Of a stretch of DNA of 64,000 bases, positions 36,570 through 64,000 are shown piece after piece. Source of the DNA: Chitinophagales bacterium. GTDB lineage: Bacteria; Bacteroidota; Bacteroidia; Chitinophagales; LD1. The stretch is from NCBI GenBank assembly GCA_035299425.1, contig DATGWP010000024.1, forward strand, positions 1,120-65,119, given 5' to 3'. Every line of letters begins with the position of its first letter. The first letter of the stretch is position 1. The notes beneath the pieces are model-generated. The model was not told the DNA's origin. It did not search any database and was given only the letters and a program-made list of their open reading frames with translations. The translations under genes and the position numbers were made by a program.

Positions 36570-36592
36570 GCTTTAAACAAAATGGGTAGTAT

Positions 36593-38701: not shown

Positions 38702-38722
38702 TTGGGTTATCTAATTCAAAAC

Positions 38723-49617: not shown

Positions 49618-51168
49618 CTATGCAGTAGCAGCTTCGGGCATATTGGCCAGGCGGTTGGCTCTTAGCTCTTCGGCATAGGTACTTTTGTTAAGGCAGGCCC
49701 GGCACCAGATAAGCAGGTTAAAATCCAGCAGGTAGTTAAAGTCTTCCTGCCTGCGCTCCTGGTTTACCTTTTCAAGCCATGGCAGCATGTCGGCCAGTAG
49801 CTCTTGTTTTTCGGCTTTGGGCAAACCATGCTGTAGTTTGCCCAGGTAAGAAATTACCTGTTTCAGATAATCGGAAACAATATTGTTCTTCTTCATAAAA
49901 TACTGGGTGTTGTTCAGCGCACTTTCCATAAGCGAAAGATTGTTTTGCTCATAATGCACCAGGGCCACCAGCAACCGGGCATAAGCCGGCACGGCCATAA
50001 AGGATACGTTTTCGTGTGCAATGGTTTTTTCTAACCAGTGCAGGCATTTATCGCGGTCGCCGACCACGTAAAACAATATGCTGAGGTAAAAGCAGCTCAT
50101 CATATTATTGTTGCCAATTAGTGGACTGTTGCAAACAAGCAAATTGCTTTCGGCATCCAGCACTTCGGCATACTCCATTTTGCGCAGCTGGCTTATTACG
50201 GTAAGGTACATCAGCTGGTTTTTGCTGTATAGCTTTTGGCGGTAAATTTCCAGTGCGGGGTCTTTAAAACGGGTATTTTGCAATACCTGCAGCTGATGTT
50301 CGGCTTCGTCCATCAGTTCCATATTAAGGGCTATAAGAATGATGTTGCTGATGTTGGCGAGATACTGGGAAGTAACTTTTGTATCCAGCTCTATCTCCTT
50401 AAACATCTCGTTGGTTAACTTAAGATACTTCAGCGCATCGTTATCATCGCTGATGATGCAGGAGTACAGGTAAAGGGCTGTGTAAATCTTGCCCTTGCTA
50501 TGGTACCCCCAGTTAAGGCCTTCGGTGAAATAAGGATGGTTTTTAACGGCATCTGCTTTGGCCTTTATTTCGGGGGTTAATGTGCCTACACCAATTACTT
50601 CATCAAAAATTACCTTCATTTCGTAGGTCATCTCCTCCAGCACCAATCCCTTTTGTATCTGCTCGTTCACCTCTTTTACTTCCACCTTAATAGCCTTGAT
50701 AGCTTCTACCGGGTACTTTGCTATGTGCCTTATCATCAGGCTCATTTTGGTGGCCTTAAACTGGTACTCCATAGAAATATTGTAGCACTGCTGCGCCTTG
50801 CGGATGCTATCGTTAATCAAATCCATAGCCTGATCATCCAGCCCCTTATCCATCAGGTTCTGTACGTCCAGCAGGTTTTCGGTCAGCTTATAGTTGGTAT
50901 TGTTGGCCGTGTGGTAGCTACGCAGGCACCGCATAAGCTGGGCATACAGGTAATTTTTCTGCGCGCTCAGGTTGAATTTCTTATCCCCTTTGGCAAAGTA
51001 CTTCTTAATAGGTTCCTCATTGTACTCATCTGCTTTATCCAGCAGGTCGAACAATTTGAGATAGTCGTTGCCGGTTGATTTTTCGCCATAGCGGGCAGCA
51101 AATTTTTTGAAATATCCCTTTTCGTTCTTATCCAGCGACTTTACAAGTAAAAAAAGATTGTCAATCAT
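49618..51168 (-). CDS. Hypothetical cytoplasmic all-helical (TPR-like) protein, divergent from the giant-protein operon
   Basis: 516 aa. No signal peptide. Helix-repeat-like composition. No motif recognised. Confidence 0.55.
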   Translation of the reverse strand: MIDNLFLLVKSLDKNEKGYFKKFAARYGEKSTGNDYLKLFDLLDKADEYNEEPIKKYFAKGDKKFNLSAQKNYLYAQLMRCLRSYHTANNTNYKLTENLLDVQNLMDKGLDDQAMDLINDSIRKAQQCYNISMEYQFKATKMSLMIRHIAKYPVEAIKAIKVEVKEVNEQIQKGLVLEEMTYEMKVIFDEVIGVGTLTPEIKAKADAVKNHPYFTEGLNWGYHSKGKIYTALYLYSCIISDDNDALKYLKLTNEMFKEIELDTKVTSQYLANISNIILIALNMELMDEAEHQLQVLQNTRFKDPALEIYRQKLYSKNQLMYLTVISQLRKMEYAEVLDAESNLLVCNSPLIGNNNMMSCFYLSILFYVVGDRDKCLHWLEKTIAHENVSFMAVPAYARLLVALVHYEQNNLSLMESALNNTQYFMKKNNIVSDYLKQVISYLGKLQHGLPKAEKQELLADMLPWLEKVNQERRQEDFNYLLDFNLLIWCRACLNKSTYAEELRANRLANMPEAATA

Positions 51169-51330
51169 GGTTCGAGATTTATCACTTAAATGCTATAACC
51201 TATTGAATTTCAACACAAAACAAATATCGTCAATAACATTTTGTGCTCTTCAACTCCCTATTTAAAGGTAAATATTATTTTAAAATAATTAACACGTTAT
51301 CACATATTTGATAGCGAAAAATTATCAACC

Positions 51331-54300
51331 ATGAGAAAATTATTCCCCATACTATTTCTTTTGGCAGTGTGCTGCCTGCCGGTTTCACTGTTTGGCCAGA
51401 ATGAAGTAACGGTTACAGCGCAGGTTACGCCACCCTACTCACCTTATCTGTCTACGTATGTTGACCAACCCAACAAGGTGATAGTAACCCTGATAAATAC
51501 TACCAACCAAACGCAAAACCTGCGCCTGTGGATACGCATATCAGGCGACAACGGCATAAGTGTTACTACACAACAAAGCTGGAAACCAACTGAGGCTATT
51601 ACCCTTAGCCCCACCGGTTCGCAGGGATTTATAAAAACACTGGATTTTACCAGCGAACAAACCCGCAGCTATTTTGATGAAGGCCATACCGACCTGGTAG
51701 GAATAACCAAAGCGCAGCTGATACAAAACCAGGCACTACCCGAAGGTAACTATACCATATGTGTACGCGCCTACGATTACAATACATCGCAGCCCCGCTC
51801 GATGGATGCCTGCAGCAGTTTTCCTATTTACTATATAGACCCACCGGTAGCTATGCAGCCCAACTGCGCTACTACCTTAACGGCCAGCACGCCGCAGTTT
51901 GTTCTATTCTCGTGGACTCCACCTGCCACAGCGCCCGGTAATATACAGTATGAGTTTACCCTGAAAGAAGTGCCTAACAACATGAACCCGAACGACATTA
52001 TTAAGAACAATGTTTTTCCGGTAGTGTTTAATACCACGCAAACCGGTAACAATACGCTTGTATACAATGTAGCCCAACCGGCGCTTAACACCGGCAAAAA
52101 ATATGTATGGCGGGTAAAGGCTGTAGACCCTAACAACAGCGTGCAGTTTAAAAACGGCGGCTACAGCGAGCCATGCTACTTCAATTACGAAGCGGCACAA
52201 ACCGCCCCACGCACCGACACGGTGCCCCGACCTGAAACACCGGTGGCGGGTACTATTATTTTAAAAATACCAGCCAACAACTCTACTACCGATGCGGTGC
52301 TTTCGTCTAACACATCATCTGTAGCCGACCATTATAAATTTGAATGGAAACCGGCACCGGTGACCACTAATACGGGTGCTCCATTAACCTACACGTTGCG
52401 CATAGCGCATGTATCTGCCGGGCAATCGCCTGCGCAGGCACTTGGTATAGACTCTCAGGTAGTAACCAAAGCCGTACTTGGTACTGCGTATAACTACACC
52501 AAGCTATCTGACTTTGTGCCCGGCGAAACCTATGCCTGGGAAGTAAAATATGTGCAAAATGGTGTGGTGAAACACTATAGCGATAAGTGGACTTTTAAAG
52601 TAAAGAAGAATTATGGCAAGTATAAGGTGAGCGGCAAAATAGAATATTGCTACACCCTGCCTGCAGTAAGTAGCTGGAGTAGTTCCTCATCAAGTATTAT
52701 AAGTGGAAGCATAGGCATACCCAATACGGCAGGTGGCCAGGTGGGTACTAGTGTAAACGGTGGGGCCTTAGCTATAAACAACAAGGGCACCCTGCCCTAC
52801 AAGAATAGTATAGTAGCTTTTTATAAAGCTATATTGGTAAAAGAAGGGAATAACCCGGTAGTGGCCATGGATGGCACCGATTTAATAAAAGCCAGCCAGG
52901 CAAGCGGCGGAAGCCCGTATTTTCAGGATGCCGGCGAACTGGTAGGCATAGCTTTTACCGATGAAAACGGCCGCTTTGATTTTAGCACCGATGAAGTGCT
53001 GGGCAAAGTATATGAGGCCACCGCACAGGGTAAAACATATAATTACCATAAAGCTTTAAAAGTTACACTGGGCCCCCAGAGCAACCTGTATATAAACAAC
53101 CCCGATGAATATGTAATACTGGAGGGTGGCACATCGGTAGAAAAGAATTTTTATGCGCGGGTAAAATCTTTTAAGCTAAAGGTTAAGTTTAAAGAGCTGC
53201 CTAAGAAAGATTATTACAACAAAACACAACCGGTAGACCCTTTATCGAAAAACATAACGCTGTATGTGCTGCGCGAAAAACGTTACCCCACTTATAACTT
53301 TCCGGTAAATGAAGGAACCAGTGATTTTGCAAATAACGAGGAACTGAACCTGTGTTTCTGGCCGGGGTGGTGTACCAAGTATGCCGTAGTAGCCAAAAAG
53401 AAAACCAAAACAAACATAACTACCACCTTTGAAGACCTGGTAGTAAATGACCCTAATAACCCGGCTAATGATAAACTGTATTTGTATGCTACAATAGATG
53501 GCAGAAGCGAAATGGTAATGTTGCCGCAGGAGTTTCGCAGCACCGATGGAACATCTAATACCTGCACACTCAACTTTAATGATTTTACTTTTCAGGCCAG
53601 CAGCGATTACGAAAAACAATACAACAGCGGTTGCCTTACCCGCAGCACTACTATAATTCCTAAAATGCTAATCAGCTCGCAGCTATCGGGCCGGTTAGTA
53701 TCGCACTGGGCCATGCAGAAAAACCCAAACGATAAACAGAACGATAAAGCGGATAAGCCAATTGCCAATACCAAGGTAAAACTGATGGCCTATGTAACCA
53801 AAAAGCAGGCTGATGGTACCGAAAAAATGGTATCCTCATTTAAGCCCGAACTGATGGATGTAACCACTACCGATGAGAACGGCAACTTTAAATTTGATGT
53901 AAATATTTTCTCTGATTCATCTAACAAAAGTACACTGCTGGGTTCGTTCGGTTTTTGGGGTGGCGAGTACTACCGCGTGCTGCGTGTAGTGGTAGATAAC
54001 CCCTACTACTTTAGCCCCGATAACAGTTTTGTAATAGATGGCGGCTACGAATACGAAGTAGGCACACTTAGCTGCAATGTGCGCGAGGCCCGCTTATCGG
54101 GCGTGCTGCGCGATGATGCCGCTACGCCAAAACCTATTGCCAACCAGCGTGTATACCTATGCCGCTGGGATGGATGGATAGATGACTATGTACCTGGCGA
54201 CGAAGGACAAGCCAGCACAGTTACCGTACCCAAAATTTATGACAAAGACAATTACGAGTATCGCGTAATAGCTGAAACTACCACCGACGCCAATGGCAAG

Positions 54301-57300
54301 TTTAGCTTTAACCGCCTGGTAGGTGCAGGCAACTCGCTTACTACCGGTTATACCGACTGGCCTTACTTTGTGCATGTGCAGCCCGATGAGCTATCTACCA
54401 ATAATTACATAACAGAGTATCCGAAGGATTACACGTTCAACGTAGGTATGGATGCTACCGGGTTTAAGCAGTTTAACTCCGAACAGTTTCCGGTGGCGCT
54501 AACCATGGCCGGCGATGTAACTGCTACAGCACTTAAGCCTACTATACGCGGGGTAGTGCATCCAAAATCAAACATGGGCTTTACTACGCTGGAAGGTGCC
54601 AAGGTTTACCTGCTACGATATACCGATGCAGAAGTGGACTGGACAAATACTATAATACCCGGACTAATGGATTGCTGCTTTGATGGCAACCAAAGCGATG
54701 CCTATGCTTACCTGGGGTTGGGTTATATACAAAGCAGCGCCAAATATAAATTGCACGCCACCCAAATTACGGGGCCCGATGGCAGGTTTGTGTTTAATGA
54801 CCTACCTACAAAAAGTATCTGGGGCTCTAACTTCCACTACGTGGTATGGGTAGAGAAAAATGGTTTCTTAACTGAGGTGGTAAAAGTAGCGGGAGGTGCA
54901 CCTTTACTAAAAGGCCAGCAGTTTCCGGTTTATATAGATCTGCGTTTACCGGTAGAAGTAAAGGTGAAAGTAAAAAGCTACGACAGCGACTTTGGCGTGC
55001 CATCTAAAATTATAGTGGGCAATGCCTATAGCTGGAGCCAGACACACGGTATAAATTGCCAGCTTAAAAACTACATGTACATATGCGATGAAGAAGCAAC
55101 GATACTATGCCCTACAGGTAAAGTAAAGTTGTATGTATACCCCGAAAACCAGGATGCCTACCTGCCCGATTCATTTGAAGTAACTATAAAGCAAAGCAGC
55201 AACAACCTGGCACCGCTGGAGGTGCGCGAACGCATGCACGACATAGGTTTTATGATGTATGATAAAAACACGAATGCATTATTATCAAAACAGGGTGCCA
55301 TACTAACTGAGGCTAACGTGAACGCTTTTAAAGGTGTATGCGTAACACAGGACCCGCAAAAACCAATTTTAAAAACAAACCATGCCCCCAACTGCCAGTT
55401 TAAAAGCAACGCTACCGATTTTAAATTTATTGCCTTTGGTTTTGATGCCACCGGTGTGCCTTATGTGCCTAAGCTGGTGAATGTGCACAGCAACCCGCAA
55501 TACTACGAGGGCTGGTGCGATGTGAGTGTGCAGCTTGAGCGCGGGGGCACCTTTACCGGCACTGTTAAACTTGGTACTACACCAGTGGCCGGGGCCCGGG
55601 TGTATGTAGACCCTCAGTTTACCGGTGGTGTACCTATTGAAACCACTACCGATGCCAGTGGCAGCTACATGCTAAGCGGTGTGCCATTGAAAAAAGATGT
55701 GGTGATATATGCTGTAAAGCAAAATTACATAGGCGATAAAATTATCCTTTCATACACCAGCAGTTCGGGACAAAAGTATAAGCTATCGCCTGTAATGAAC
55801 ACCTACACCAAAAACTTTACTATTAAAGAGTGTAACCTGGATATTGCCACCATACTTGGTTTTAAAGTAGAGGCCACCGATATGGTGCTGCCACTAAATG
55901 GCAACATTAAACTTTCGGGGCGCTTTGTTAACCTGCCCGGCAACGAAGTGGTAAGTGGCACCGATAATTCTAACCTGACTTTTTCGAATATAGAGTTAAA
56001 GGCAGGCAGTACTAATGGGGCCAGTGGCAAACCAAAGGCGGTACCGGTTAGCTTACCTATATATACTAACAACATTGGCTTTCCGGTAAAGGTATACAGC
56101 ACCCTTAGCGGTAATGTAATTGCATCGGGCTGGAGCGGTGTAGAAATAGCTGAGAAAACAGACATTATACCATCGGGCAACATGACCCAGGCACCTACTA
56201 CCGTAACCATGGGGGTAATTAAAGGCAGCCTGCTGGTAAATGCTACCTCTTTTGCCGATGGAATAAAATTCAACAAATCATACATTGGTGCAAGGCCTAA
56301 GGGTGCAACCACATCGGTGTTTGATGCACTTAACTCCAATGGAGCTAAACCAGTGGGCACTATGGGCGGCTTTACGGTAGAAGATGTAAGCGGCAGTAAC
56401 CTCAGGTTTAATTTATTTAACCGCTACCCTAATGCTGAAGCCGACAAAGCAACATCTACCCTGACCAGCGGCGATGTGCTTACACTGGATACCAAGCTGC
56501 ATACCAACCTTAACAATGTAACGCCGAAAGATGTAGCCTTAGCGGTGGGCAAAGTTGTGTTTAAACCCAAAAGCTATACTGTGGATATTAACAGCACAAA
56601 GGCTATCAGCATACCGCTTGGTAACTGGAGTGTAAGCAGCAGCGACTGGATACTATCTAAAGCAGGTGGGCTTGTAATGAAAACCGGTAAGCTGAATACA
56701 GCGGTATCGGTACCGTTTAAAAACATGAGCCTGACTTATACCGACCTGATGTACGGCGAGTTTGAATTTAACGGCATGACACTGGGTGGCATAGTGCCAC
56801 TTACTATCAAGTCAGATGCTACCCGTACCTTTGGTTTTGATAAAGGTACCATGGGAGGTACCTGGACATTTATAATATTACCGGGACAAAACAGCAGTTA
56901 CTGTTCATCGTTTGGCAACCTGCCCGGCATGACCGGTAGTAACCAGTTCTATATACAAAGCATACGGTCGTTTAGCAAAACAGAACAGGCCAAGGTAGAA
57001 CTAAAGAACGGAGCACCACCAATAGGAATATACGGCGTATCTACCTTTGCACCGGGAAGTATGGATGTGGGCGCTGATAACATTGCTATGATTGGCTCTA
57101 TTGATTTTGGCATACCGGCACTGGCTTACAACAGTAATATGAAACTGATGTGGAAGAAAACATCATCGGGCACACAGCTGCAAATGCCGGAGGCCCCAAC
57201 CTTTAGTTTAAAATCGAAAGGCATACAGTTTAACCATGCCTCAAGCGATGCATATACATTCAGCAATAACCTGTTTGTATTAAAGGGGGTGATGAAGGAT

Positions 57301-58425
57301 GAAAAAACATCGCCAAACAATTACGCCTTTAATGTAGAGCTGCGCAAAACACCGGGCTCTATCAAAATACAAACCTTTGATGCCAACAACAAATTCCTGT
57401 ACACCAGCGGTGGCAACCGTGGGTTAGAGAAAGTAAACGGCTCTATGAGTGTATCGGGTACCAACTGGAGCAACTTTGAATTTACCGGTGATATGTTTGG
57501 CATGGATGGAGGAATTAAAGAGAGTAACAAGAAAGTATCGATGACCATTAAGGGGGATATAGTAGCCAGCCCGGGGAATAAGATGGGTGTGACCGGTGTA
57601 GAAACCCCAATGGGCAATATGAATTTTGTTTACGATTTTCAGCAACAGGCCTTTGTTGGTTCATCGCACATAGGCTCGGACATAGGCGACCAACATGCCG
57701 AGATTGATATGGAACTAATGATAGGCAGCGGCAAGTACTACGTAGCCGGTTCGGGCGAAATGACCTTTCCGCCTGATTTCTGGATAAAGAAAGCGAGTGC
57801 AGCCTTCTTTGCCGGCAAGGTAAGCACCTTCCCTACCACCGTATCTTCTATGTTCGCTAACTTTACGTACGATCATTCTACACCGGCTTTCTTAACCGGC
57901 GCATATACCGGTGTGGCAGGTGCCTTTGGGGTTAAGATGCCGATACCAAAAGTGCCGCAGTTCTCCCTCAACTTCAAACCATTTATTAGTATGGGTATAG
58001 AGCATGAGATAAGCATCAATGCCATTACCTCGCTCAACTTTTCCGAAACACCTACACTGGCTTTAAATGCCAGCGCCTGCGCTTACTTAAAAGCGTATGC
58101 CGGCGCATCGGTAGGGGTGGGTTGTTTCCACCTGGAGGCTGCAGCCAAAGCAGGAGTACAGATAAGCGGTGAGTTTAATAAGAACGCAGCCAGCATAGCC
58201 GGTTCGGCCGAGTTGAAACTAAGCGGTAGCGGCGAGTTGGGTGTAGGCTGCTGCGATAGTGATTGCGACCATCCATTCTACTGCCCTTGTATTACCGGTG
58301 GTATAGGTGTATGCTTTAGCGGCGAAATACACGGCAACTACAGCACCGGTGGTGGACTTGACATAGGCAGTGATGGAGTAGGATGCAGCAGCGGCAGCTG
58401 TGGCAACCAAATGAAATGCAACTAA
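51331..58425 (+). CDS. Giant secreted protein (2364 aa) with several carboxypeptidase-regulatory-like beta-sandwich modules and a Cys-rich C-terminal tail; no recognisable T9SS CTD
   Basis: Signal peptide MRKLFPILFLLAVCCLPVSLFGQ. CRD-like signatures (TDENGRFDFS, TDENGNFKFDV, TDANGKFSFNRL, GPDGRFVFNDLP, ARVYVDP..TTTDASGSYMLSGVP). The last 61 aa contain 12 Cys (GVGCCDSDCDHPFYCPCITGG..CSSGSCGNQMKCN). Confidence 0.8.
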   Translation: MRKLFPILFLLAVCCLPVSLFGQNEVTVTAQVTPPYSPYLSTYVDQPNKVIVTLINTTNQTQNLRLWIRISGDNGISVTTQQSWKPTEAITLSPTGSQGFIKTLDFTSEQTRSYFDEGHTDLVGITKAQLIQNQALPEGNYTICVRAYDYNTSQPRSMDACSSFPIYYIDPPVAMQPNCATTLTASTPQFVLFSWTPPATAPGNIQYEFTLKEVPNNMNPNDIIKNNVFPVVFNTTQTGNNTLVYNVAQPALNTGKKYVWRVKAVDPNNSVQFKNGGYSEPCYFNYEAAQTAPRTDTVPRPETPVAGTIILKIPANNSTTDAVLSSNTSSVADHYKFEWKPAPVTTNTGAPLTYTLRIAHVSAGQSPAQALGIDSQVVTKAVLGTAYNYTKLSDFVPGETYAWEVKYVQNGVVKHYSDKWTFKVKKNYGKYKVSGKIEYCYTLPAVSSWSSSSSSIISGSIGIPNTAGGQVGTSVNGGALAINNKGTLPYKNSIVAFYKAILVKEGNNPVVAMDGTDLIKASQASGGSPYFQDAGELVGIAFTDENGRFDFSTDEVLGKVYEATAQGKTYNYHKALKVTLGPQSNLYINNPDEYVILEGGTSVEKNFYARVKSFKLKVKFKELPKKDYYNKTQPVDPLSKNITLYVLREKRYPTYNFPVNEGTSDFANNEELNLCFWPGWCTKYAVVAKKKTKTNITTTFEDLVVNDPNNPANDKLYLYATIDGRSEMVMLPQEFRSTDGTSNTCTLNFNDFTFQASSDYEKQYNSGCLTRSTTIIPKMLISSQLSGRLVSHWAMQKNPNDKQNDKADKPIANTKVKLMAYVTKKQADGTEKMVSSFKPELMDVTTTDENGNFKFDVNIFSDSSNKSTLLGSFGFWGGEYYRVLRVVVDNPYYFSPDNSFVIDGGYEYEVGTLSCNVREARLSGVLRDDAATPKPIANQRVYLCRWDGWIDDYVPGDEGQASTVTVPKIYDKDNYEYRVIAETTTDANGKFSFNRLVGAGNSLTTGYTDWPYFVHVQPDELSTNNYITEYPKDYTFNVGMDATGFKQFNSEQFPVALTMAGDVTATALKPTIRGVVHPKSNMGFTTLEGAKVYLLRYTDAEVDWTNTIIPGLMDCCFDGNQSDAYAYLGLGYIQSSAKYKLHATQITGPDGRFVFNDLPTKSIWGSNFHYVVWVEKNGFLTEVVKVAGGAPLLKGQQFPVYIDLRLPVEVKVKVKSYDSDFGVPSKIIVGNAYSWSQTHGINCQLKNYMYICDEEATILCPTGKVKLYVYPENQDAYLPDSFEVTIKQSSNNLAPLEVRERMHDIGFMMYDKNTNALLSKQGAILTEANVNAFKGVCVTQDPQKPILKTNHAPNCQFKSNATDFKFIAFGFDATGVPYVPKLVNVHSNPQYYEGWCDVSVQLERGGTFTGTVKLGTTPVAGARVYVDPQFTGGVPIETTTDASGSYMLSGVPLKKDVVIYAVKQNYIGDKIILSYTSSSGQKYKLSPVMNTYTKNFTIKECNLDIATILGFKVEATDMVLPLNGNIKLSGRFVNLPGNEVVSGTDNSNLTFSNIELKAGSTNGASGKPKAVPVSLPIYTNNIGFPVKVYSTLSGNVIASGWSGVEIAEKTDIIPSGNMTQAPTTVTMGVIKGSLLVNATSFADGIKFNKSYIGARPKGATTSVFDALNSNGAKPVGTMGGFTVEDVSGSNLRFNLFNRYPNAEADKATSTLTSGDVLTLDTKLHTNLNNVTPKDVALAVGKVVFKPKSYTVDINSTKAISIPLGNWSVSSSDWILSKAGGLVMKTGKLNTAVSVPFKNMSLTYTDLMYGEFEFNGMTLGGIVPLTIKSDATRTFGFDKGTMGGTWTFIILPGQNSSYCSSFGNLPGMTGSNQFYIQSIRSFSKTEQAKVELKNGAPPIGIYGVSTFAPGSMDVGADNIAMIGSIDFGIPALAYNSNMKLMWKKTSSGTQLQMPEAPTFSLKSKGIQFNHASSDAYTFSNNLFVLKGVMKDEKTSPNNYAFNVELRKTPGSIKIQTFDANNKFLYTSGGNRGLEKVNGSMSVSGTNWSNFEFTGDMFGMDGGIKESNKKVSMTIKGDIVASPGNKMGVTGVETPMGNMNFVYDFQQQAFVGSSHIGSDIGDQHAEIDMELMIGSGKYYVAGSGEMTFPPDFWIKKASAAFFAGKVSTFPTTVSSMFANFTYDHSTPAFLTGAYTGVAGAFGVKMPIPKVPQFSLNFKPFISMGIEHEISINAITSLNFSETPTLALNASACAYLKAYAGASVGVGCFHLEAAAKAGVQISGEFNKNAASIAGSAELKLSGSGELGVGCCDSDCDHPFYCPCITGGIGVCFSGEIHGNYSTGGGLDIGSDGVGCSSGSCGNQMKCN

Positions 58426-58453
58426 TTATTAGGGAAAGGAAAAAACAAAGAAG

Positions 58454-60463
58454 ATGAAAAGAGTAGCAATAATATTACTTGCCGTGTTTGCCACTTTGTT
58501 TAGCAACGCACAGAACAAAGCAGCCTTCGGTGGTATCAACGGCATCTACGTATTCAATCCGTTTGACCCGGCATCGCCCAAAAAGCCCAATGCCAAAGGC
58601 GCAGTGAAGTATAAACTGGATCGCCGCGAGACCGGTGGTACATGGCAAAGCGTGGGCACCTACAACTGCCCGGTAAGCGAAAGCGAGCTAACCAATAACT
58701 ACCATAAAAACTACCGGTTTGTATTAGGCAAAGAGTTTACCAACCCCAATAACATACTACGGTTATGGCAGGAGTATAACAAAACCCCACGATGGGATTC
58801 GCTGGCCTTCTTTTTTTACGACCGGGCAGCAGCCCTTGCTATGTGCTACCAGTTTATAGATACCGTAGCACGCACCGGCGTAAGCTACGAGTACCAGATA
58901 AGCGAACTGGATAAGAGTGACAAAGTGCTAACCTCGCTAACCACCAATGCCGTATCGTATCCTAACAACAACGTATTTACTTCGGCGCCTAAATCATCGA
59001 GTGTTGAAGGAAGCCAGACACAGGCCTACATAGTATGGAACCAGGAGAATACATCGCGCCCGGTGTTTTACAGAATCTACCGTAAAAACGGAGTGCAGGG
59101 TGAATTTGAGTTTTTGCAAAATGCCAGCAATATATCGCGCGGTACTAACAGCGATAAATTTACACTTGAATACCGCGACCGCAGCGTGGGCGCTAACCAG
59201 ATGTATTTTTACTATGCTGTGCCCTGCGATGGTTTTGGCAACACCGGTAAAGCATCGGATACCGTGCTGGTAAAAACATATGAGACAAAAGACATTTTAA
59301 CGCCGCAATATTTCATTGCCGAAAAATTACCGGGCAAAAGGGGCGTACTGCTTAAATGGCGGCTGAACACCTCGCAAAGCGTAGCCGGTATAGAGGTTTT
59401 CCGCAGCGAGAACTATGATGGTACTTTTAGCAAAATAGGTGTAGCCTCCGAAAGCGATACCAGCTACAGCGACTTAACGGCAGCACCGGCCAAAATATAT
59501 TACTACTACCTGCAAATGATTGACCGGTTTCAGCATACCAGTGTGCGCACGCCGCGTACCTCGGCATTATTTGAAGATACACGCGCACCGCGCGCACCGC
59601 GCTATTTAACAGCCGGCATGCAGGGCGATAAAGTAAAAATACAATGGACCACGGCCGATAAAGAGATTGCGGGTTACTATGTATACCGCTCGCTGGGCCA
59701 CGATTCTGCATACACACTTATCTCTGATTTTATACCAGCCAAAGATTCGGTTACTACATATGTAGATGAGAGCAACGACCTGAAATCGGAGTATGGATAC
59801 TCGTATGCAGTAACACAAGAGAACACCAGCCACGTAGCCAGTAAACAAAGCTACCCTGCATACCTGCCCAGCCAGATGAAGGCCAGCGAAGCCCCATTGG
59901 CCCTGCACCTGCAGGTGGGTGCCGGCAAACAAGGTGCTATGCTGTTTTGGGATAACATGCAAAACATGAATGGTGTGATAGGTTATATAGTGTATAAAAG
60001 AAAAAAAGGCGATGGAGAAATGAAACCGGTATCGGAAGGTATGCTTTCGGCCAGCCGTAATTTTTATGCCGATACGTTGCTTGAGTTAGGCAATGTATAT
60101 GAGTATGCCGTGCAAACTATGATGGTGAGCGGCAACAACTCGGCCATGAGCGATGTGGTAAGCTATACCTACGGCGACCTTTCAGTAGTAATACCGGTGG
60201 GCCTTACTGCTGCCTACGGCGAAACCGGTGTAGAACTGAACTGGACAGAGGTAGACAAAAAGCGCGTGAAAGAAGTGCAGGTTTACCGCGCCGAACGCGG
60301 CGGATCAAGCGCGATGAAATTAGGAATCGTAGCTAATGATAAATCGCAATACATGGATATGACCACTACAGCAGGTAAGGCATACTACTATTACCTGGTA
60401 GCCATAGGTACCGATGGTACCGAGAGCGATAAAAGCGATGCCGTATTTGTAAACGCGGAATAA
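58454..60463 (+). CDS. Secreted protein with about 6 fibronectin-type-III-like modules
   Basis: 669 aa. Signal peptide. Six recurring FN3 G-strand-like signatures (YEYQISELD, YFYYAVPCDGFGNTG, YYYYLQMIDRF, YSYAVTQEN, YEYAVQTMM, YYYYLVAIGTDGTESDKS) at about 100-aa spacing. Confidence 0.7.
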   Translation: MKRVAIILLAVFATLFSNAQNKAAFGGINGIYVFNPFDPASPKKPNAKGAVKYKLDRRETGGTWQSVGTYNCPVSESELTNNYHKNYRFVLGKEFTNPNNILRLWQEYNKTPRWDSLAFFFYDRAAALAMCYQFIDTVARTGVSYEYQISELDKSDKVLTSLTTNAVSYPNNNVFTSAPKSSSVEGSQTQAYIVWNQENTSRPVFYRIYRKNGVQGEFEFLQNASNISRGTNSDKFTLEYRDRSVGANQMYFYYAVPCDGFGNTGKASDTVLVKTYETKDILTPQYFIAEKLPGKRGVLLKWRLNTSQSVAGIEVFRSENYDGTFSKIGVASESDTSYSDLTAAPAKIYYYYLQMIDRFQHTSVRTPRTSALFEDTRAPRAPRYLTAGMQGDKVKIQWTTADKEIAGYYVYRSLGHDSAYTLISDFIPAKDSVTTYVDESNDLKSEYGYSYAVTQENTSHVASKQSYPAYLPSQMKASEAPLALHLQVGAGKQGAMLFWDNMQNMNGVIGYIVYKRKKGDGEMKPVSEGMLSASRNFYADTLLELGNVYEYAVQTMMVSGNNSAMSDVVSYTYGDLSVVIPVGLTAAYGETGVELNWTEVDKKRVKEVQVYRAERGGSSAMKLGIVANDKSQYMDMTTTAGKAYYYYLVAIGTDGTESDKSDAVFVNAE

Positions 60464-60508
60464 AAACCAGCCGGTAAAATTGCTAAGTGAGCGCATTAAA
60501 ACGAGTGA

Positions 60509-62239
60509 ATGATTAAAGGCAACGCAAAACTTTTATTGGTTATCCTGTTTACCTGCCTGCAGTGCTATGCACTTAGCGCGCAGGACCTGGGCAACATAAA
60601 GCAACAGAACCCTTTTGAGATTTCGGGCACGGCAAGCACCAGTGTGGGTTATTACAAAGCCAACTCCTTCAACAGCACGCGCAAGCCGTATGCCTACTCT
60701 ATTATGCTGGCACCTACTATCTCCGTTTATGGTGTGCAGATACCGCTGAACTTTACATTTACCGAAGGTTCGAGAAGTGTAAGCAACCCCTTTGCGCAGT
60801 TTGGCATTAACCCATATTACAAATGGGTGAAGGGATACTTTGGCTGGACCAATATGAGCTGGAGCCCCACCACGCTAAACGGTAAAACATTTTTGGGCGC
60901 AGGTATAGAATTAAACCCATCGCTGTTTCGCTTTGGGGCGTTTTATGGCATAATGAACCCAGCCATAAAAGAAAACCTCCTGGGACCTAATGCGCAGCAA
61001 CCTCAGTACAAACGCCGCGGCTGGGGCCTGAAACTGGGTGTGGGTAATGCCGATAATCATTTCGATTTTATATGGCTGCACAGCAAAGATGTAGTAGGCT
61101 CAATACCGGTGCCAAAGGATACTCTTAACCAGATAAACTATACCCCGCAGGAGAACGCCATATTTGGTATAAAGAGCCACCAGGCTATGTTTAAGAAGAA
61201 ACTAACCTGGGATGTAGATGGCTCGGTAAGCGCAATTACCCGCAACTTGAACTCGGAGCTGCTGGACATAGGCACCGGTTTCGGTACTAAGTTTTTGAAG
61301 ATAGCTATTCCTCCGCGCCTATCTACCAGCTATGCCTGGACGGTGCACAGCAACTTAACCTATAAAGCAGAAACGTACTCGCTGGGGTTTGATTATAACC
61401 GCATACAGCCCGAGTATGTAAGCCATGGGCTGGATTATATTTTGAACGACCAGCAAAAATTCAGCGGGGTGCAGACCTTTATGGCCAGCAAGAAGAAAAT
61501 AAACGTAAGCTTTACCGAATTTTACCAGCACGATAACCTGAACAAACGCAAAGCGGTGAAAACACACCGTACCGGCCTGGGCATGAACATGGGGCTGAAT
61601 GTAAACAAACATTTTGGTGCGGCTATCTCCTACAGCAACTATTTCACGTTTCAAACTAAAGGGTTGAAAGAACTTAAAGACTCTACCAAACTTTACCAAC
61701 TACAACAAACGGCTGTGTTTGCCCCTTATTACTTAATAGCCAATGCCAAGATGGTACATAACATTATGCTATCGCTGGCATACTCAAGGCTGGATGATTT
61801 TAATAAAGTGACCTCGCAGTTTTCGAAAAACAGCACTATTAATGCAAATGTGGGTTACACACTCTCTGTAAACAAAATAGGTTTTACAACATCACCCTCT
61901 TTCAATGTGCTTTACTCGCAATCGCCGGCATTTACTTTGCTGAGTGTGGGGCCTACTATTGGATTTAGCAAAACAGTGCTGAAGGGCAAGATGGCACTAA
62001 GCACCAGCATTACTTTTATAGCATCGCGCCAAAACGCAGTATGGACTACCAAGACCATTACCAATACATTAGGGCTAAGCTACAGGGTTACCAAAAACCA
62101 CGCCCTTAAGTTCAGCAACAACATACTCTACAATATGTTTGTGGCCAGCAGCACGTATGAGTTTAAAGGCGATATAACCTATACTTATACGTTTGGCTAT
62201 ATAGTTAAAAGCAAAACCGAGCAGCAGAAAAACTTCTAA
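60509..62239 (+). CDS. Predicted outer-membrane beta-barrel protein
   Basis: 576 aa. Signal peptide. Pervasive alternating hydrophobic/polar beta-strand pattern rich in aromatic residues. Terminal residue Phe (..EQQKNF). Confidence 0.6.
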   Translation: MIKGNAKLLLVILFTCLQCYALSAQDLGNIKQQNPFEISGTASTSVGYYKANSFNSTRKPYAYSIMLAPTISVYGVQIPLNFTFTEGSRSVSNPFAQFGINPYYKWVKGYFGWTNMSWSPTTLNGKTFLGAGIELNPSLFRFGAFYGIMNPAIKENLLGPNAQQPQYKRRGWGLKLGVGNADNHFDFIWLHSKDVVGSIPVPKDTLNQINYTPQENAIFGIKSHQAMFKKKLTWDVDGSVSAITRNLNSELLDIGTGFGTKFLKIAIPPRLSTSYAWTVHSNLTYKAETYSLGFDYNRIQPEYVSHGLDYILNDQQKFSGVQTFMASKKKINVSFTEFYQHDNLNKRKAVKTHRTGLGMNMGLNVNKHFGAAISYSNYFTFQTKGLKELKDSTKLYQLQQTAVFAPYYLIANAKMVHNIMLSLAYSRLDDFNKVTSQFSKNSTINANVGYTLSVNKIGFTTSPSFNVLYSQSPAFTLLSVGPTIGFSKTVLKGKMALSTSITFIASRQNAVWTTKTITNTLGLSYRVTKNHALKFSNNILYNMFVASSTYEFKGDITYTYTFGYIVKSKTEQQKNF

Positions 62240-62245
62240 AAGAAA

Positions 62246-64000
62246 TTATCGCAACAGTTTCTTTACACAATACGAATTTTCGTTTTGCAGGCGTACTAAG
62301 TAAACTCCCTGCGGCAAGTGCGTAACATCTACCTGTGCACCACTTTCTACCGAAGGCTGCTTAAATACTTCACGGCCGTTTACATCTACCAGTTGCACAT
62401 CCAGTTGATCAAAATCGCCGGTTACTTTAAATACACCGGTGGTAGGGTTAGGCATTATCTCTACATCCTCCAACAATAGCTTTGGCACACCGGTATAAGC
62501 TGCCGCGTTCAGGTTGATATTATCTATATAAAAAGCGTTGGTATAGTAGCTGGTATATTCTATACGGAACATAAAATTGCTTACCGCCTGCGCACCGGTG
62601 AGGTTAAAACTATATGTTTTCCATTGCAGCGAATCGGCAGGCACCCAGTTAGAGTCAGTTTGCGGTGAACTAACCGTGCGCAGATTAGCACCAAAGCGGC
62701 GGCCCTTGCTTAGCCATGTTTGGCCGCAATCGGTAGAGATAAATACTTCTAACCCATCATCGTTGTTCTGCTTCTTCTGGCTGCAGGCATATTTTAAACT
62801 AAACAAAGCAGTACCGGCATTACTCATATCGGCACTACCCGATGCCAGCACTGTGCGGCCGGTGTAGGCAGCAGTAGTATCGGCCATGCGTATCACAGCC
62901 GCTCTGGGGCTGTTGAATCCTTCTCCGGTATTACTTAAGGTAAACCTCAGGTTGCCATTATCAAAACTGTTTATCAGGCCGGTTTCGTTTACAGCGTTTA
63001 CAGTTTCAAACCCTTCTACAAAAAACGGATAGGCCGTATAGGGGTTAACGCGAATTAAAAACGAATCGCTGGTTAGGGTGGTAGCCCCTTTGGATGCAGT
63101 AAGTGTTACATAATAATCGCCGGGCACATCATAAGTATGCACCGGGTTTTGAATAGTGCTGGTAGTATTGTCGCCAAAATTCCAAAGCCATGTATCGGGT
63201 GTGGCCACGCTTAAGTCAGTAAACTGAACGGAATCGCTATAGCATATAATACTCTTATCGGCAGTAAACGCAGCCTTGCAAATAGTAGCAAGGCCAATGC
63301 CGGTAGCTGTATGGTTAGCCGGTGTTATCAGGTTATTGCGGTTAGCCACCGGAGAGTTAACAGCCGCCCGCATACGCTGGCGTTGCCCTTGTGTAAACAT
63401 AAAATTGCAGTAGCTATAGTCCATGGCATTCTGCACGTTATCTACCGCACTGCTGCACGATGCTGCTGTAAGGTTGCAGTTGCTCCAGCCAATAGTAGAT
63501 GGAGTATCCTGCACATCATCCCCAATAGCGCAGTTAGCCTGCTGGCCTACAGGCTGGTAAAAATAACCAGGCACATTATTGCCGCCCCATATATGGAACA
63601 GGTTAAGATAATGCCCCACCTCGTGCGCCATTACCACCGATGTATACTCTGATGATGTGCCTATGTTGCCCAGGTAACTGTCATCTATCACTACTCCATC
63701 CCACTCGGGTTTGGCGGCTGCCTGGTCGGGCATAAGGCAGTGGCCGGCAAGGTTAGCTATACTGCGTACTACATATACATTCAGGTATTTAGCAGGGTCC
63801 CAATGTATCAGGTTCTTTACGCTGTGGTCGCCAATTTTGGTAAGCGGCGATGCTATACGGTTAATGCCATTAGTGCAATTGCCATTTGGGTCCAGCTGCG
63901 CCATTTTAAATTCTATTTCACAGTTGGCGGCTATGGGTTTAAAGGCGGCGACTATATTGGCCGAGTCGGGGTTCTGGTTGGCAAAGTTCCGGTTGAGCAC
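62246..64000 (-). CDS. M43-family (cytophagalysin/pappalysin-like) zinc metalloprotease with a PKD domain and a T9SS type-A CTD; 5'-truncated by the window edge
   Basis: HEVGHYLNLFH zinc motif. PKD signature (FTDLS...WLWNFGDNTTS..NPVHTY..PGDYYVTLT). C-terminus VEIMPNPTTGVFKVTG...GVYLVRLQNE. Confidence 0.88.
   Translation of the reverse strand: MLNRNFANQNPDSANIVAAFKPIAANCEIEFKMAQLDPNGNCTNGINRIASPLTKIGDHSVKNLIHWDPAKYLNVYVVRSIANLAGHCLMPDQAAAKPEWDGVVIDDSYLGNIGTSSEYTSVVMAHEVGHYLNLFHIWGGNNVPGYFYQPVGQQANCAIGDDVQDTPSTIGWSNCNLTAASCSSAVDNVQNAMDYSYCNFMFTQGQRQRMRAAVNSPVANRNNLITPANHTATGIGLATICKAAFTADKSIICYSDSVQFTDLSVATPDTWLWNFGDNTTSTIQNPVHTYDVPGDYYVTLTASKGATTLTSDSFLIRVNPYTAYPFFVEGFETVNAVNETGLINSFDNGNLRFTLSNTGEGFNSPRAAVIRMADTTAAYTGRTVLASGSADMSNAGTALFSLKYACSQKKQNNDDGLEVFISTDCGQTWLSKGRRFGANLRTVSSPQTDSNWVPADSLQWKTYSFNLTGAQAVSNFMFRIEYTSYYTNAFYIDNINLNAAAYTGVPKLLLEDVEIMPNPTTGVFKVTGDFDQLDVQLVDVNGREVFKQPSVESGAQVDVTHLPQGVYLVRLQNENSYCVKKLLR

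What the first reader, a model, noticed from the sequence alone, without database searches (positions are those of the whole stretch)
49618..62239. Uncharacterised envelope operon: 2364-aa secreted giant + FN3-repeat protein + beta-barrel, with a divergent helical-repeat protein
Three co-directional genes with 28-45 nt gaps all encode proteins with signal peptides:
- a 2364-aa protein rich in carboxypeptidase-regulatory-like beta-sandwiches
- a 669-aa protein built of about six FN3-like modules
- a 576-aa protein with the hallmarks of an outer-membrane beta-barrel, including a terminal Phe

At least four other large secreted proteins in this window have clear CTDs. None of these three has a recognisable T9SS type-A or type-B CTD. 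The giant's route to the surface may therefore depend on its own barrel partner. That would resemble a two-partner or anchor-type arrangement not described for Bacteroidota.

A 516-aa cytoplasmic all-helical protein is transcribed divergently from a 162-bp shared control region and could be a cognate regulator or chaperone. I could assign no function to any of the four proteins from motifs alone.
Basis: partly seen in the sequence, partly recalled or inferred. Interest (0 to 1): 0.7.

Follow-up and report, generated by a model that had tools for sequence, protein, structure and literature searches.

The report
TANFOR giant with dedicated barrel partner
This Chitinophagales operon encodes a giant surface protein of the little-studied "TANFOR" class, a six-module FN3 helper and a large, unnamed outer-membrane barrel that accompanies such giants (some of them true toxins) across Bacteroidota, which points to a testable export or anchoring route for a protein class whose secretion path is unknown.

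Summary
In detail: four ORFs at the stated coordinates, 28/45-nt gaps, a 162-bp divergent region, three signal peptides and no T9SS CTD.

"No function assignable" is too pessimistic. The giant's first ~290 aa are a TANFOR-like domain plus an FN3 domain. TANFOR marks a published (2020) class of Bacteroidetes polymorphic toxins with no known export route.

The 576-aa protein models confidently as a ~26-strand barrel without plug or POTRA. Its family has ≥3,880 clusters at 50% identity and no Pfam/NCBIfam model. It is not PorP/SprF.

Linkage holds both ways:
- Barrel-seeded loci carry a module-bearing giant, with permuted gene order, in three Bacteroidota classes.
- 17 of 18 informative module-seeded clusters carry an adjacent barrel.
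- Barrel neighbours include real toxins (WHH+SUKH, AHH, endonuclease NS_2).

In 20 Chitinophagales loci, N-terminal module and barrel co-vary (~57% identity). Giant body, Cys-rich tail and FN3 protein form a separate fast-evolving block (~33–36%).

Best reading: the barrel is the dedicated outer-membrane partner (translocator and/or anchor) docking the N-terminal module, analogous to two-partner secretion. This is inferred, not shown. The divergent gene is a RusR/BT2802-like putative regulator. The window's giant has no recognisable toxin or immunity gene.

The parts
49618..51168 (-). 516-aa cytoplasmic protein, a putative transcriptional regulator. Its N-terminal ~140 aa are BT2802/RusR-like; the rest is presumably a helical or TPR-like sensor region.
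   Evidence: NCBIfam NF058569 BT_2802_fam: E 2.3e-21, residues 2-140. Weak TPR_MalT hit at 357-500. BT2802 = RusR, a putative DNA-binding regulator (bioRxiv 10.1101/574913). The gene is conserved in divergent orientation in at least 13 Chitinophagales loci. L037 has a TPR+GerE protein in this position, and L038 has a TPR protein plus a response regulator.
51169..51330 (.). 162-bp AT-rich divergent intergenic region, presumed to be the shared control region.
   Evidence: 27% GC. No exact Bacteroidota -7 motif (TAnnTTTG) on either strand. Promoters were not identified.
51331..51396 (+). Sec signal peptide of the giant (residues 1-22, mature N-terminus Gln23).
   Evidence: Read directly from the translation. 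The N-terminal hydrophobic segment followed by Q is conserved in orthologues.
51397..52200 (+). Conserved N-terminal module of the giant (residues ~23-290): a TANFOR-like beta-sandwich (26-162) plus an FN3 domain (183-266). Invariant motifs: PPYSPY, GDNG, ALPEGNY, YIDPP, FSWTPPAT, KYVWRV.
   Evidence: TIGR02542 TANFOR: 47.9 bits, E 1.3e-12, below the 67-bit cutoff. fn3: 24.9 bits. 50-60% identity among orthologues while the rest of the protein is 22-25%. The closest database homologue is named 'TANFOR domain-containing protein'. A local HMM of the module hits the Emticicia WHH-toxin giant at E 2e-37. AlphaFold2 model: the core has pLDDT 75-90 and folds as tandem FN3-like sandwiches.
52201..57500 (+). 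Variable body of the giant (residues ~291-2057). It holds transthyretin/CarboxypepD_reg-like beta-sandwiches and long regions with no family.
   Evidence: Pfam CarboxypepD_reg 1408-1456 and NOMO_3rd 934-999. No family for residues ~1440-2364. 22-45% identity to orthologues. It co-varies with the C-terminus (0.86) and the FN3 protein (0.78) but not with the barrel (0.24).
57501..58425 (+). C-terminal region of the giant: Gly/Ala/Ser-rich, ending in a Cys-rich tail (11 Cys in the last 130 aa). No known toxin domain and no T9SS CTD.
   Evidence: Tails with 7-12 Cys occur in all Chitinophagales-type giants and in most short-barrel loci. No Pfam, NCBIfam, PADLOC or PDB hit.
58454..60463 (+). 669-aa secreted protein of six FN3-like modules, the cognate partner of the giant's variable part.
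   Evidence: Repeat alignment. A homologue directly follows the giant in 16 of 16 short-barrel loci and in the Dyadobacter and L033 loci. It co-varies with the giant's body and C-terminus (0.78-0.79) and not with the barrel (0.11).
60509..62239 (+). 576-aa outer-membrane beta-barrel of ~26 strands with no plug or POTRA domain. It belongs to a large unnamed family.
   Evidence: AlphaFold2: pLDDT 86.5, pTM 0.74. Foldseek against PDB: MtrB 6r2q_B (E 1e-10, TMq 0.51), PapC/FimD ushers, LptD, SlpA. No Pfam, NCBIfam or PDB sequence hit. 3,880 clusters at 50% identity reach E<=1e-3. No match to PorP/SprF, whereas the window's real PorP/SprF scores 172 bits.

Best explanation
The locus is a TANFOR-type giant-protein system of the 'short-barrel/FN3-partner' sub-type. 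It has a conserved apparatus and a swappable payload.

**What is shown**
- All three products carry Sec signal peptides and lack T9SS sorting domains.
- The 576-aa protein is a wide (~26-strand), plug-less outer-membrane barrel.
- The barrel and the giant's ~290-aa TANFOR+FN3 N-terminal module are linked across Bacteroidota and co-vary.
- The giant's body, its Cys-rich C-terminus and the FN3 protein form a second block that diverges fast and independently.

**What is inferred**
- After Sec export and BAM insertion of the barrel, the giant's N-terminal module docks to or in the barrel.
- The barrel then translocates the giant, or anchors it, or both. The variable body and C-terminus end up on the cell surface.
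- This would work like TpsB/CdiB with the TPS domain of CdiA, or like the plug-in-barrel complexes LptDE and MtrAB, but with unrelated parts.
- The FN3 protein binds or co-assembles with the giant's variable region. It occupies the position that immunity genes hold in toxin-type loci.
- The RusR/BT2802-like protein controls transcription from the shared 162-bp region.

The window's giant is more probably an adhesin-like or contact-mediating surface protein, or a toxin of unrecognised type, than a nuclease-type toxin.
For: 1. **Family assignment.** TIGR02542 gives E 1.3e-12 on residues 26-162. The nearest homologue is named TANFOR. The local module HMM hits giants in Emticicia (2e-37), Runella (4e-28) and Dyadobacter (1e-12).

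2. **Linkage, barrel to giant.** 31 genome loci were seeded by the barrel. Every locus with enough flank has a module-bearing giant, except four remnants and one divergent case. The gene order is permuted in Dyadobacter, L033-35, Runella and Emticicia, yet the genes stay adjacent.

3. **Linkage, giant to barrel.** 80 metagenome loci were seeded by the module alone, giving 22 clusters. 17 of the 18 informative clusters have an adjacent barrel. The barrel often overlaps the giant's start by 16-79 nt or lies within 4-54 nt of it.

4. **Barrel neighbours include true polymorphic toxins.** WHH + SUKH-1 in Emticicia; AHH and Endonuclea_NS_2 in L095 and L120.

5. **Co-variation**.
   - N-terminal module vs barrel: Spearman 0.65, both ~57% mean identity.
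   - Body / C-terminus / FN3 protein: 0.78-0.86 among themselves, 33-36% identity.
   - Between the two groups: 0.11-0.24.

6. **Barrel structure.** ~26 strands and no plug or POTRA. Its nearest folds are barrels that hold or pass polypeptides: MtrB, ushers, LptD. Long variants add a ~250-aa C-terminal extension. From the sequence composition I infer it is helical, and from the even strand count that it faces the periplasm.

7. **No T9SS CTD** in the giant or the FN3 protein. The barrel is not PorP/SprF.

8. **The export route is stated as unknown** in the only dedicated paper (PMC7073777). That paper's own table shows unannotated signal-peptide proteins of 548-593 aa next to many TANFOR genes.
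Against: - There is no physical or experimental evidence of any interaction or of translocation.
- The TANFOR HMM score is below NCBI's cutoff (47.9 vs 67 bits).
- The co-varying blocks are also contiguous on the DNA, so linkage and recombination alone could produce part of the correlation.
- One module-seeded cluster (25 loci, L085 type) has no barrel within 6 kb upstream or 5 kb downstream. It has a SprB-repeat T9SS-CTD protein instead.
- Four loci keep an intact barrel without a giant, so the barrel may have a function of its own.
- The barrel has no POTRA or other obvious substrate-handling domain.
- The N-terminal module folds as generic FN3-like sandwiches, which is uninformative about mechanism.
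- The equivalence of the paper's unannotated neighbours with the barrel family rests on length, signal peptide and position only.
Confidence: 0.5

Rival explanations
1. Export uses the T9SS after all, as the 2020 paper speculated. The giant would ride on or be handed to T9SS components or SprB-like surface filaments. The barrel would be only a cell-surface anchor or accessory, functionally like PorP/SprF for type-B cargo, and not a translocator.
For: - The organism has a T9SS. The window itself encodes PorP/SprF, a PorE-like protein and five CTD cargos.
- SprB-repeat/CTD proteins sit next to module-bearing giants in Emticicia (together with the barrel) and in the L085 cluster (without a barrel in view).
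- The paper reports SprB and CTD enrichment around TANFOR genes, and a T9SS in >95% of TANFOR-encoding genomes.
Against: - Neither the giant nor the FN3 protein has a type A or B CTD at E<0.01. Genuine CTDs in the same window score 33-53 bits.
- The barrel does not match the PorP/SprF model, and at 26 strands it is far larger.
- In the window-type loci no SprB/CTD gene is part of the conserved cassette.
- Nearly all non-Bacteroides Bacteroidota have a T9SS, so genome-level co-occurrence is weak evidence.
Confidence: 0.22
2. The operon is a nutrient-capture or surface-binding system, loosely like a PUL. The barrel would be a diffusion or uptake channel. The giant and the FN3 protein would be surface binding proteins, all under a RusR-like regulator.
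For: - The regulator's N-terminus resembles RusR of the B. thetaiotaomicron ribose PUL.
- CarboxypepD_reg and transthyretin-like sandwiches and FN3 modules are common in glycan-binding surface proteins.
- The barrel is plug-less like a porin.
- The barrel persists alone in four loci.
Against: - The same barrel family and N-terminal module flank nuclease toxins with immunity genes. That is a conflict system, not a nutrient system.
- The conserved cassette contains no enzyme, SusC/D pair or inner-membrane transporter.
- The rapidly diverging, swappable payload block fits antagonism or recognition better than nutrient uptake.
Confidence: 0.1
3. The giant and FN3 protein build a surface layer or fibre whose only link to the barrel is anchoring, as with the SlpA-type S-layer anchor. 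Translocation would occur by some other, unidentified route.
For: - Foldseek hits include the Deinococcus SlpA/SDBC barrels.
- The window-type giants have no toxin or immunity gene.
- The repetitive beta-sandwich body and Cys-rich tail suit a structural role.
Against: - No alternative translocator is encoded in the cassette.
- The TM-scores to SlpA are low (0.29-0.31).
- Toxin-bearing relatives share the same N-terminal module and barrel family, which suggests a general delivery role.
Confidence: 0.13

Closest known systems
TANFOR-domain polymorphic toxins of Bacteroidetes (Jana, Salomon & Bosis 2020, PMC7073777; TIGR02542)
   Same: Sec signal peptide followed by an N-terminal TANFOR-like domain and then an FN3 domain. 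Very large protein. Restricted to Bacteroidota. Fn3-domain genes nearby. Relatives with the same N-terminal module carry WHH, AHH or endonuclease toxins plus immunity genes.
   Different: The window's giant has no recognised C-terminal toxin and no immunity gene. It has a Cys-rich tail and a 669-aa FN3 partner instead. Its TANFOR score is below the curated cutoff. The conserved barrel partner is not mentioned in that paper, which proposed T9SS export.
Two-partner secretion / contact-dependent inhibition (TpsA-TpsB, CdiA-CdiB; type Vb)
   Same: Giant Sec-dependent exoprotein. A conserved N-terminal recognition module with a variable distal part, including polymorphic C-terminal toxins with immunity genes in relatives. 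A dedicated adjacent outer-membrane barrel gene. Barrel and N-terminal module conserved together.
   Different: The barrel is not Omp85-like: ~26 strands rather than 16, no POTRA, and no Pfam match. The N-terminal module is TANFOR/FN3 beta-sandwiches, not a TPS beta-helix. There is an extra FN3 partner. No homology was detected, so the resemblance is analogy only.
Plug-in-barrel or sheath complexes: MtrAB(C), LptDE
   Same: Best structural neighbours of the barrel model: MtrB (E 1e-10, TMq 0.51) and LptD. These are 26-strand barrels that enclose a partner polypeptide.
   Different: About 10% sequence identity and modest TM-scores. No cytochromes and no LPS-transport genes. Whether anything sits inside this barrel is untested.
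T9SS type-B cargo with PorP/SprF and PorE (e.g. SprB-SprF)
   Same: Bacteroidota giant surface protein encoded next to its own outer-membrane barrel. A genuine example lies in the same window at 32892-39802.
   Different: The giant has no type-B CTD. The barrel does not match TIGR03519 and is much larger (576 vs 359 aa here).
Chaperone-usher pathway (PapC/FimD with PapD/FimC)
   Same: Usher barrels are among the top structural matches. An Ig/FN3-like accessory protein is encoded alongside.
   Different: No usher plug and no N- or C-terminal usher domains. The FN3 protein has six modules rather than a two-domain chaperone. There are no pilin subunits.

Membership tests
TANFOR domain-containing proteins (TIGR02542) | Match to the TIGR02542 HMM at or above the curated cutoff (67 bits) | tested here: not met
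   47.9 bits, E 1.3e-12, covering profile positions 4-139 of 145. The match is significant but sub-threshold. Orthologues score 26-43 bits.
TANFOR domain-containing proteins (TIGR02542) | The domain sits at the mature N-terminus, after a Sec signal peptide, of a large Bacteroidota protein | tested here: met
   Domain at residues 26-162, directly after the signal peptide. Chitinophagales origin. A 56%-identical homologue is named a TANFOR domain-containing protein by JGI.
TANFOR-class polymorphic toxins (PMC7073777) | Variable C-terminal toxin domain followed by a cognate immunity gene | tested here: not met
   No toxin family in the last 1000 aa, and the next gene is the 669-aa FN3 protein. 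The feature is met in relatives that share the N-terminal module: Emticicia WHH+SUKH, L095 AHH and L120 NS_2.
T9SS cargo | C-terminal type A (TIGR04183) or type B (TIGR04131) sorting domain | tested here: not met
   No hit at E<0.01 for the giant, the FN3 protein or the barrel. Five other window proteins score 33-53 bits.
PorP/SprF family (TIGR03519) | Match to the family HMM | tested here: not met
   No hit for the 576-aa barrel. The window's 359-aa PorP/SprF scores 172 bits.
Two-partner secretion (TpsB/Omp85 transporter and TPS domain) | 16-strand Omp85 barrel with POTRA domains, and a TPS (Haemagg_act) domain in the exoprotein | tested here: not met
   No Pfam or NCBIfam match to Omp85/ShlB/POTRA or Haemagg_act. 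The model has ~26 strands and no N-terminal periplasmic domain.
Two-partner secretion (functional analogy only) | The barrel is required for, and interacts with, the exoprotein's N-terminal domain | not testable with these tools
   Only genomic linkage and co-variation are available.
BT2802/RusR family (NF058569) | Full-length match at the curated cutoff (550 bits) | tested here: not met
   76.4 bits, covering only the N-terminal ~140 residues. The proteins share an N-terminal domain and are not equivalogs.
Outer-membrane beta-barrel protein | Signal peptide, closed antiparallel barrel, C-terminal aromatic beta-signal | tested here: met
   Model with pLDDT 86.5 and 26 strands. Y558 and F562 are nearly invariant at the end of the last strand.

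The most novel reading that the evidence does not exclude
The unnamed ~26-strand barrel family is the outer-membrane translocon or anchor of a previously unrecognised, Bacteroidota-specific secretion pathway for TANFOR-class giants. It would be a functional analogue of two-partner secretion/CDI built from unrelated parts. It would come in at least two flavours: a short barrel + FN3 partner + Cys-rich giant, as here, and a long barrel + polymorphic toxin + immunity gene. That would explain how TANFOR toxins leave the cell without a T9SS sorting signal.
Probability: 0.35. Interest if true: 0.85.

Novelty: new variant of a known kind. Interest (0 to 1): 0.66.

Why it matters
TANFOR proteins were proposed in 2020 as a widespread class of Bacteroidetes polymorphic toxins. 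That paper reported them in 5.8% of RefSeq Bacteroidetes genomes. Nobody knows how they cross the outer membrane, and the only suggestion so far is the T9SS, although they lack its sorting signal.

This work shows that a very large, unnamed barrel family (at least 3,880 clusters at 50% identity) is encoded next to these giants and co-varies with their N-terminal 'trafficking' domain. That gives a concrete, genetically testable candidate for the missing export or anchoring component.

If confirmed, it would be a new outer-membrane secretion route in a phylum that matters in soils, oceans and guts. It would also add a new modular scaffold for contact-dependent antagonism or adhesion.

It further separates two sub-types, FN3-partnered Cys-rich giants and toxin/immunity giants. 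That split should guide annotation of thousands of 'hypothetical' genes.

Tried and rejected
- **Sequence searches of PDB** for the barrel, giant and helical protein found nothing.
- **PADLOC** for all four proteins found nothing.
- **Word-indexed profile search** with the barrel alignment added no new members. The exhaustive HMM search was needed.
- **Homologue search with the giant's N-terminal 440 aa** returned only 3 proteins. The N-terminal structure model therefore had a 4-sequence alignment and reached only pLDDT 61. Its Foldseek matches are generic tandem FN3 arrays.
- **First genome scan with the diverse alignment A1** failed for lack of a conserved stretch. It was repeated with a closer set.
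- **P0081 (Tenacibaculum)** could not be located on a contig.
- **Matching barrel hits to the accessions of unannotated TANFOR neighbours in the paper's table** gave only MAG hypothetical proteins. The Emticicia proteins are not in that table.
- **The Bacteroidota -7 promoter motif** is absent from the 162-bp region.
- **Rejected: a PorP/SprF-type barrel.** The family HMM gives no hit, and a true PorP/SprF is present in the same window for comparison.
- **Rejected: an Omp85/TpsB barrel.** There are no POTRA domains and the strand count is wrong.
- **Rejected: anti-phage defence.** No PADLOC hit.
- **Rejected: chance adjacency.** Synteny holds across classes.

Full report
**1. The observation**

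The four ORFs are at exactly the stated coordinates: 49618-51168(-) 516 aa, 51331-58425(+) 2364 aa, 58454-60463(+) 669 aa and 60509-62239(+) 576 aa. The gaps are 28 and 45 nt, and the divergent region is 162 bp at 27% GC.

The three co-directional products have typical Sec signal peptides ending just before a Gln. The 516-aa protein has none (read directly).

The 669-aa protein contains six ~100-aa repeats with the FN3 signature: a strand-B Trp and a Y-x-Y tyrosine corner at residues 145, 251, 349, 449, 549 and 644. Pfam does not call them.

None of the three proteins matches the T9SS type A or type B sorting-domain models at E<0.01. Five other proteins in the window do. The window also contains a textbook cluster at 32892-39802 made of a type-B cargo, a PorE-like protein and a PorP/SprF protein.

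The window comes from a Chitinophagales MAG. Contigs of isolate SMAG_U10612 match the window's barrel, FN3 protein and downstream gene at 95-99% protein identity, and the giant at 89%.

**2. What the parts are**

*The barrel.* With a 38-sequence alignment, AlphaFold2 gives a confident model (pLDDT 86.5, pTM 0.74). It has ~26 antiparallel strands and no plug, POTRA or other extra domain.
- Foldseek against PDB ranks MtrB first (6r2q_B, E 1e-10, TMq 0.51). PapC/FimD ushers, LptD and Deinococcus SlpA follow. These are wide barrels that enclose or pass polypeptides, but identity is ~10% and TM-scores are modest.
- There is no Pfam, NCBIfam or PDB sequence match. Every named homologue is 'hypothetical protein'.
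- An exhaustive HMM search finds 3,880 clusters at 50% identity with E<=1e-3, and 1,883 with E<=1e-30. This is a very large family with no model in Pfam or NCBIfam and no functional name at any source.
- All ten invariant alignment columns lie in residues 40-194.

*The giant.*
- Residues 26-162 match the TANFOR domain model TIGR02542 at E 1.3e-12. The score is 47.9 bits, below the curated 67-bit cutoff.
- Residues 183-266 are an FN3 domain (24.9 bits).
- The closest database homologue, at 56% identity, is named 'TANFOR domain-containing protein'.
- The body holds a few transthyretin/CarboxypepD_reg-like sandwiches.
- The last ~900 aa match nothing. They end in a Gly/Ala/Ser-rich region with 11 Cys in the final 130 residues.

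*The divergent 516-aa protein.* Over its first ~140 residues it matches the BT2802 family at E 2e-21. BT2802 is RusR, the putative DNA-binding regulator of the B. thetaiotaomicron ribose PUL (10.1101/574913).

**3. What is already known**

TANFOR-containing proteins were described in 2020 as a new class of Bacteroidetes polymorphic toxins. They have an N-terminal TANFOR domain, diverse C-terminal toxins and downstream immunity genes, and ~87% carry Sec signals. The export route is explicitly unknown, and T9SS involvement was offered as speculation. SprB, T9SS CTD, Fn3 (COG3401) and PKD domains were enriched in their neighbourhoods (PMC7073777). Later papers only list TANFOR as a 'trafficking domain'.

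No searchable paper mentions a barrel partner.

The 2020 paper's own supplementary table repeatedly shows an unannotated, signal-peptide-bearing protein of 548-593 aa next to TANFOR genes. In Flavobacteriia the neighbour is ~750-815 aa. Examples:
- C. pinensis: deaminase toxin with SUKH immunity, upstream 581 aa.
- Chitinophaga BN140078: BaCT toxin, upstream 593 aa.
- Dyadobacter beijingensis: upstream 559 aa overlapping by 17 nt, downstream a 662-aa FN3 protein.
- Runella limosa and Runella SP2: upstream 548 aa, overlap of 17 nt.
- Lewinella cohaerens: downstream 692 aa, then 558 aa.

 I could not obtain these sequences, so their identity with the barrel family is inferred from size, signal peptide and position only.

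**4. Linkage tested in both directions**

*Barrel to giant.* A genome scan seeded by the barrel gave 31 loci, essentially all Chitinophagales MAGs.
- tblastn and HMM scans show the order helical(-)/giant/FN3/barrel in about 20 of them.
- Four freshwater MAG loci (L007, L008, L009, L026) keep an intact barrel but have lost the giant. Their FN3 and regulator genes are truncated or absent.
- Distant barrel homologues show the same partners in permuted order:
  - Dyadobacter CY323: barrel, then 2059 aa, then a 690-aa FN3 protein.
  - L033-35: barrel, then 2476 aa, then a 670-aa FN3 protein.
  - L037: TPR+GerE(-), two module-bearing proteins, a 644-aa protein, then the barrel.
  - Runella pSP2_2: TPR and response regulator(-), barrel, 2151 aa, 719 aa.
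  - Emticicia pEMTOL03: SprB-repeat protein with a borderline T9SS CTD match (22.5 vs 23 bits), barrel, a 2719-aa giant ending in a WHH nuclease, then SUKH-1 immunity.
- A local HMM of the window-type N-terminal 300 aa hits the Emticicia, Runella and Dyadobacter giants at 2e-37, 4e-28 and 1e-12.

*Giant to barrel.* A metagenome scan seeded only by the N-terminal module gave 80 loci.
- After clustering at 70% identity there are 22 clusters. 17 have an adjacent barrel-family gene, 4 are uninformative and 1 is an informative negative.
- In the barrel-first loci the two genes overlap by 16-79 nt or lie 4-54 nt apart.
- The negative cluster (25 near-identical loci) has an FN3-partner homologue, a lipocalin-like protein, a SprB/T9SS-CTD protein and then the giant. 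No barrel lies within ~6 kb upstream or ~5 kb downstream.

**5. Two sub-architectures**

*Short barrels (556-601 aa).* They go with giants of 1490-2610 aa. In 16 of 16 loci a homologue of the window's FN3 protein follows directly. The giant's tail holds 2-9 Cys in 15 of the 16, and L046 has none. No Pfam toxin domain is found. The window belongs here.

*Long barrels (792-841 aa).* They add a ~230-260-aa Lys/Glu-rich C-terminal extension after the last strand. I infer it is helical from composition, and periplasmic from the even strand count.
- Their giants share one N-terminal cluster but range from 1290 to 2163 aa.
- The giants are followed directly by an ORF of 140-260 aa and have no FN3 partner, in 6 of 6 loci.
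- They carry different C-terminal toxins: AHH (56 bits), Endonuclea_NS_2 (59 bits) and a weak TNT match.

The barrel family is therefore tied to bona fide polymorphic toxins as well as to the window's toxin-less type.

**6. Modular evolution**

The analysis used 20 Chitinophagales loci, giving 190 pairs.

| Part | Mean pairwise identity |
|---|---|
| N-terminal module | 57.6% |
| Barrel | 57.4% |
| Giant body | 33.1% |
| Giant C-terminal 300 aa | 35.6% |
| FN3 protein | 33.4% |

Spearman correlations of pairwise identities:
- N-terminal module vs barrel: 0.65.
- Body vs C-terminus: 0.86.
- Body vs FN3 protein: 0.78.
- C-terminus vs FN3 protein: 0.79.
- All cross-module pairs: 0.11-0.24.

Loci with equal barrel identity to the window (60-63%) have payload identities of either ~25% or ~44%. 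So a conserved apparatus (N-terminal module + barrel) flanks a contiguous, exchangeable payload (body + Cys-rich tail + FN3 protein).

One caveat applies. The payload is one contiguous stretch of DNA, so linkage alone contributes to its internal correlation.

**7. Most likely mechanism (inferred, confidence ~0.5)**

All three proteins cross the inner membrane by Sec, and BAM inserts the barrel. The giant's conserved N-terminal module docks to or in the barrel. The module includes the invariant PPYSPY...DQPNK peptide at the mature N-terminus, which is poorly ordered in the model.

The barrel then translocates the giant, anchors it, or both, so that the variable body and C-terminus are displayed. 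The FN3 protein sits where immunity genes sit in the toxin-type loci and co-varies with the payload, so it most likely binds or co-assembles with the giant's variable part. The RusR-like protein regulates the divergent promoters.

This works like two-partner secretion/CDI, or like the plug-in-barrel complexes LptDE and MtrAB, but it fails every membership test for those families. Rival readings remain open: T9SS-dependent export with the barrel as an anchor, a nutrient-capture system, and a pure S-layer or fibre anchor.

**8. Verdict**

The giant belongs to a known but poorly understood class. The barrel partnership is, as far as I could find, undescribed, and it supplies a testable candidate for the unknown export route of TANFOR proteins.

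I rate novelty as a new variant of a known kind, and interest as moderately high.

Noticed in passing
window 32892-39802 (- strand): A canonical T9SS type-B cargo cluster: a 1225-aa protein with a type B CTD (TIGR04131, 47 bits), then a PorE/CHU_0125 OmpA-like protein (702 aa), then a PorP/SprF family protein (359 aa, 172 bits). It served as an internal positive control for what a T9SS cargo/barrel pair looks like in this genome.
   Followed up: partly
window 19578-22469(-), 29378-32761(-), 40444-43767(-), 62246-64000(-): Four further proteins with a T9SS type A CTD. One is a subtilisin-like protease (963 aa). The truncated 584+-aa protein just downstream of the barrel has a metzincin-like motif and a choice-of-anchor J domain. 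That downstream gene is conserved only in the same-species contig L003, so it is not part of the cassette.
   Followed up: partly
L007, L008, L009, L026 (freshwater Bacteroidota MAGs): Intact barrel genes (69-73% identical to the window's) whose giant has been deleted and whose FN3 and regulator genes are truncated or absent. The barrel either has an independent function or these are loci in decay.
   Followed up: partly
L080-L115 group, e.g. L085:308-11438: A lineage of 25 near-identical metagenome loci in which the module-bearing giant follows an FN3-partner homologue, a lipocalin-like 159-aa protein and a SprB-repeat protein with a T9SS type A CTD. No barrel is in view, and a run of ~155-166-aa ORFs lies downstream that could be an immunity array.
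   Followed up: partly
L081, L095, L111, L116, L118 and P0081 (barrel ORFs of 792-841 aa): Long barrel variants carry a ~230-260-aa Lys/Glu-rich C-terminal extension after the last strand. From its composition it is probably helical. These variants occur in the toxin/immunity-type loci. No family was assigned.
   Followed up: partly
window 51430-51477 (giant residues 34-49): The motif PPYSPY(L/I)S.Y(V)DQPNK at the mature N-terminus is the most conserved stretch of the giant across loci. It has low confidence (pLDDT 44-55) in the model, which would fit a docking peptide that becomes ordered only on binding a partner.
   Followed up: no
window 48447-48845 (+), 132-aa ORF: This small ORF upstream of the regulator has 58-69% identical homologues on the other side of the cassette, 0.5-3.6 kb downstream of the barrel and on the opposite strand, in seven Chitinophagales loci (L010, L013, L017, L020, L022, L023, L029). 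It is a loosely linked neighbour of unknown function, with no NCBIfam hit.
   Followed up: no
L041 (Persicobacter sp. JZB09 1.58-Mb replicon, 1291235-1320839): An unannotated stretch with a barrel homologue embedded in a run of co-directional large ORFs (1534, 1892, 707, 493, barrel 581, 1560, 689 and 2068+ aa). The last ORF bears the N-terminal module. This may be a multi-giant version of the system.
   Followed up: no
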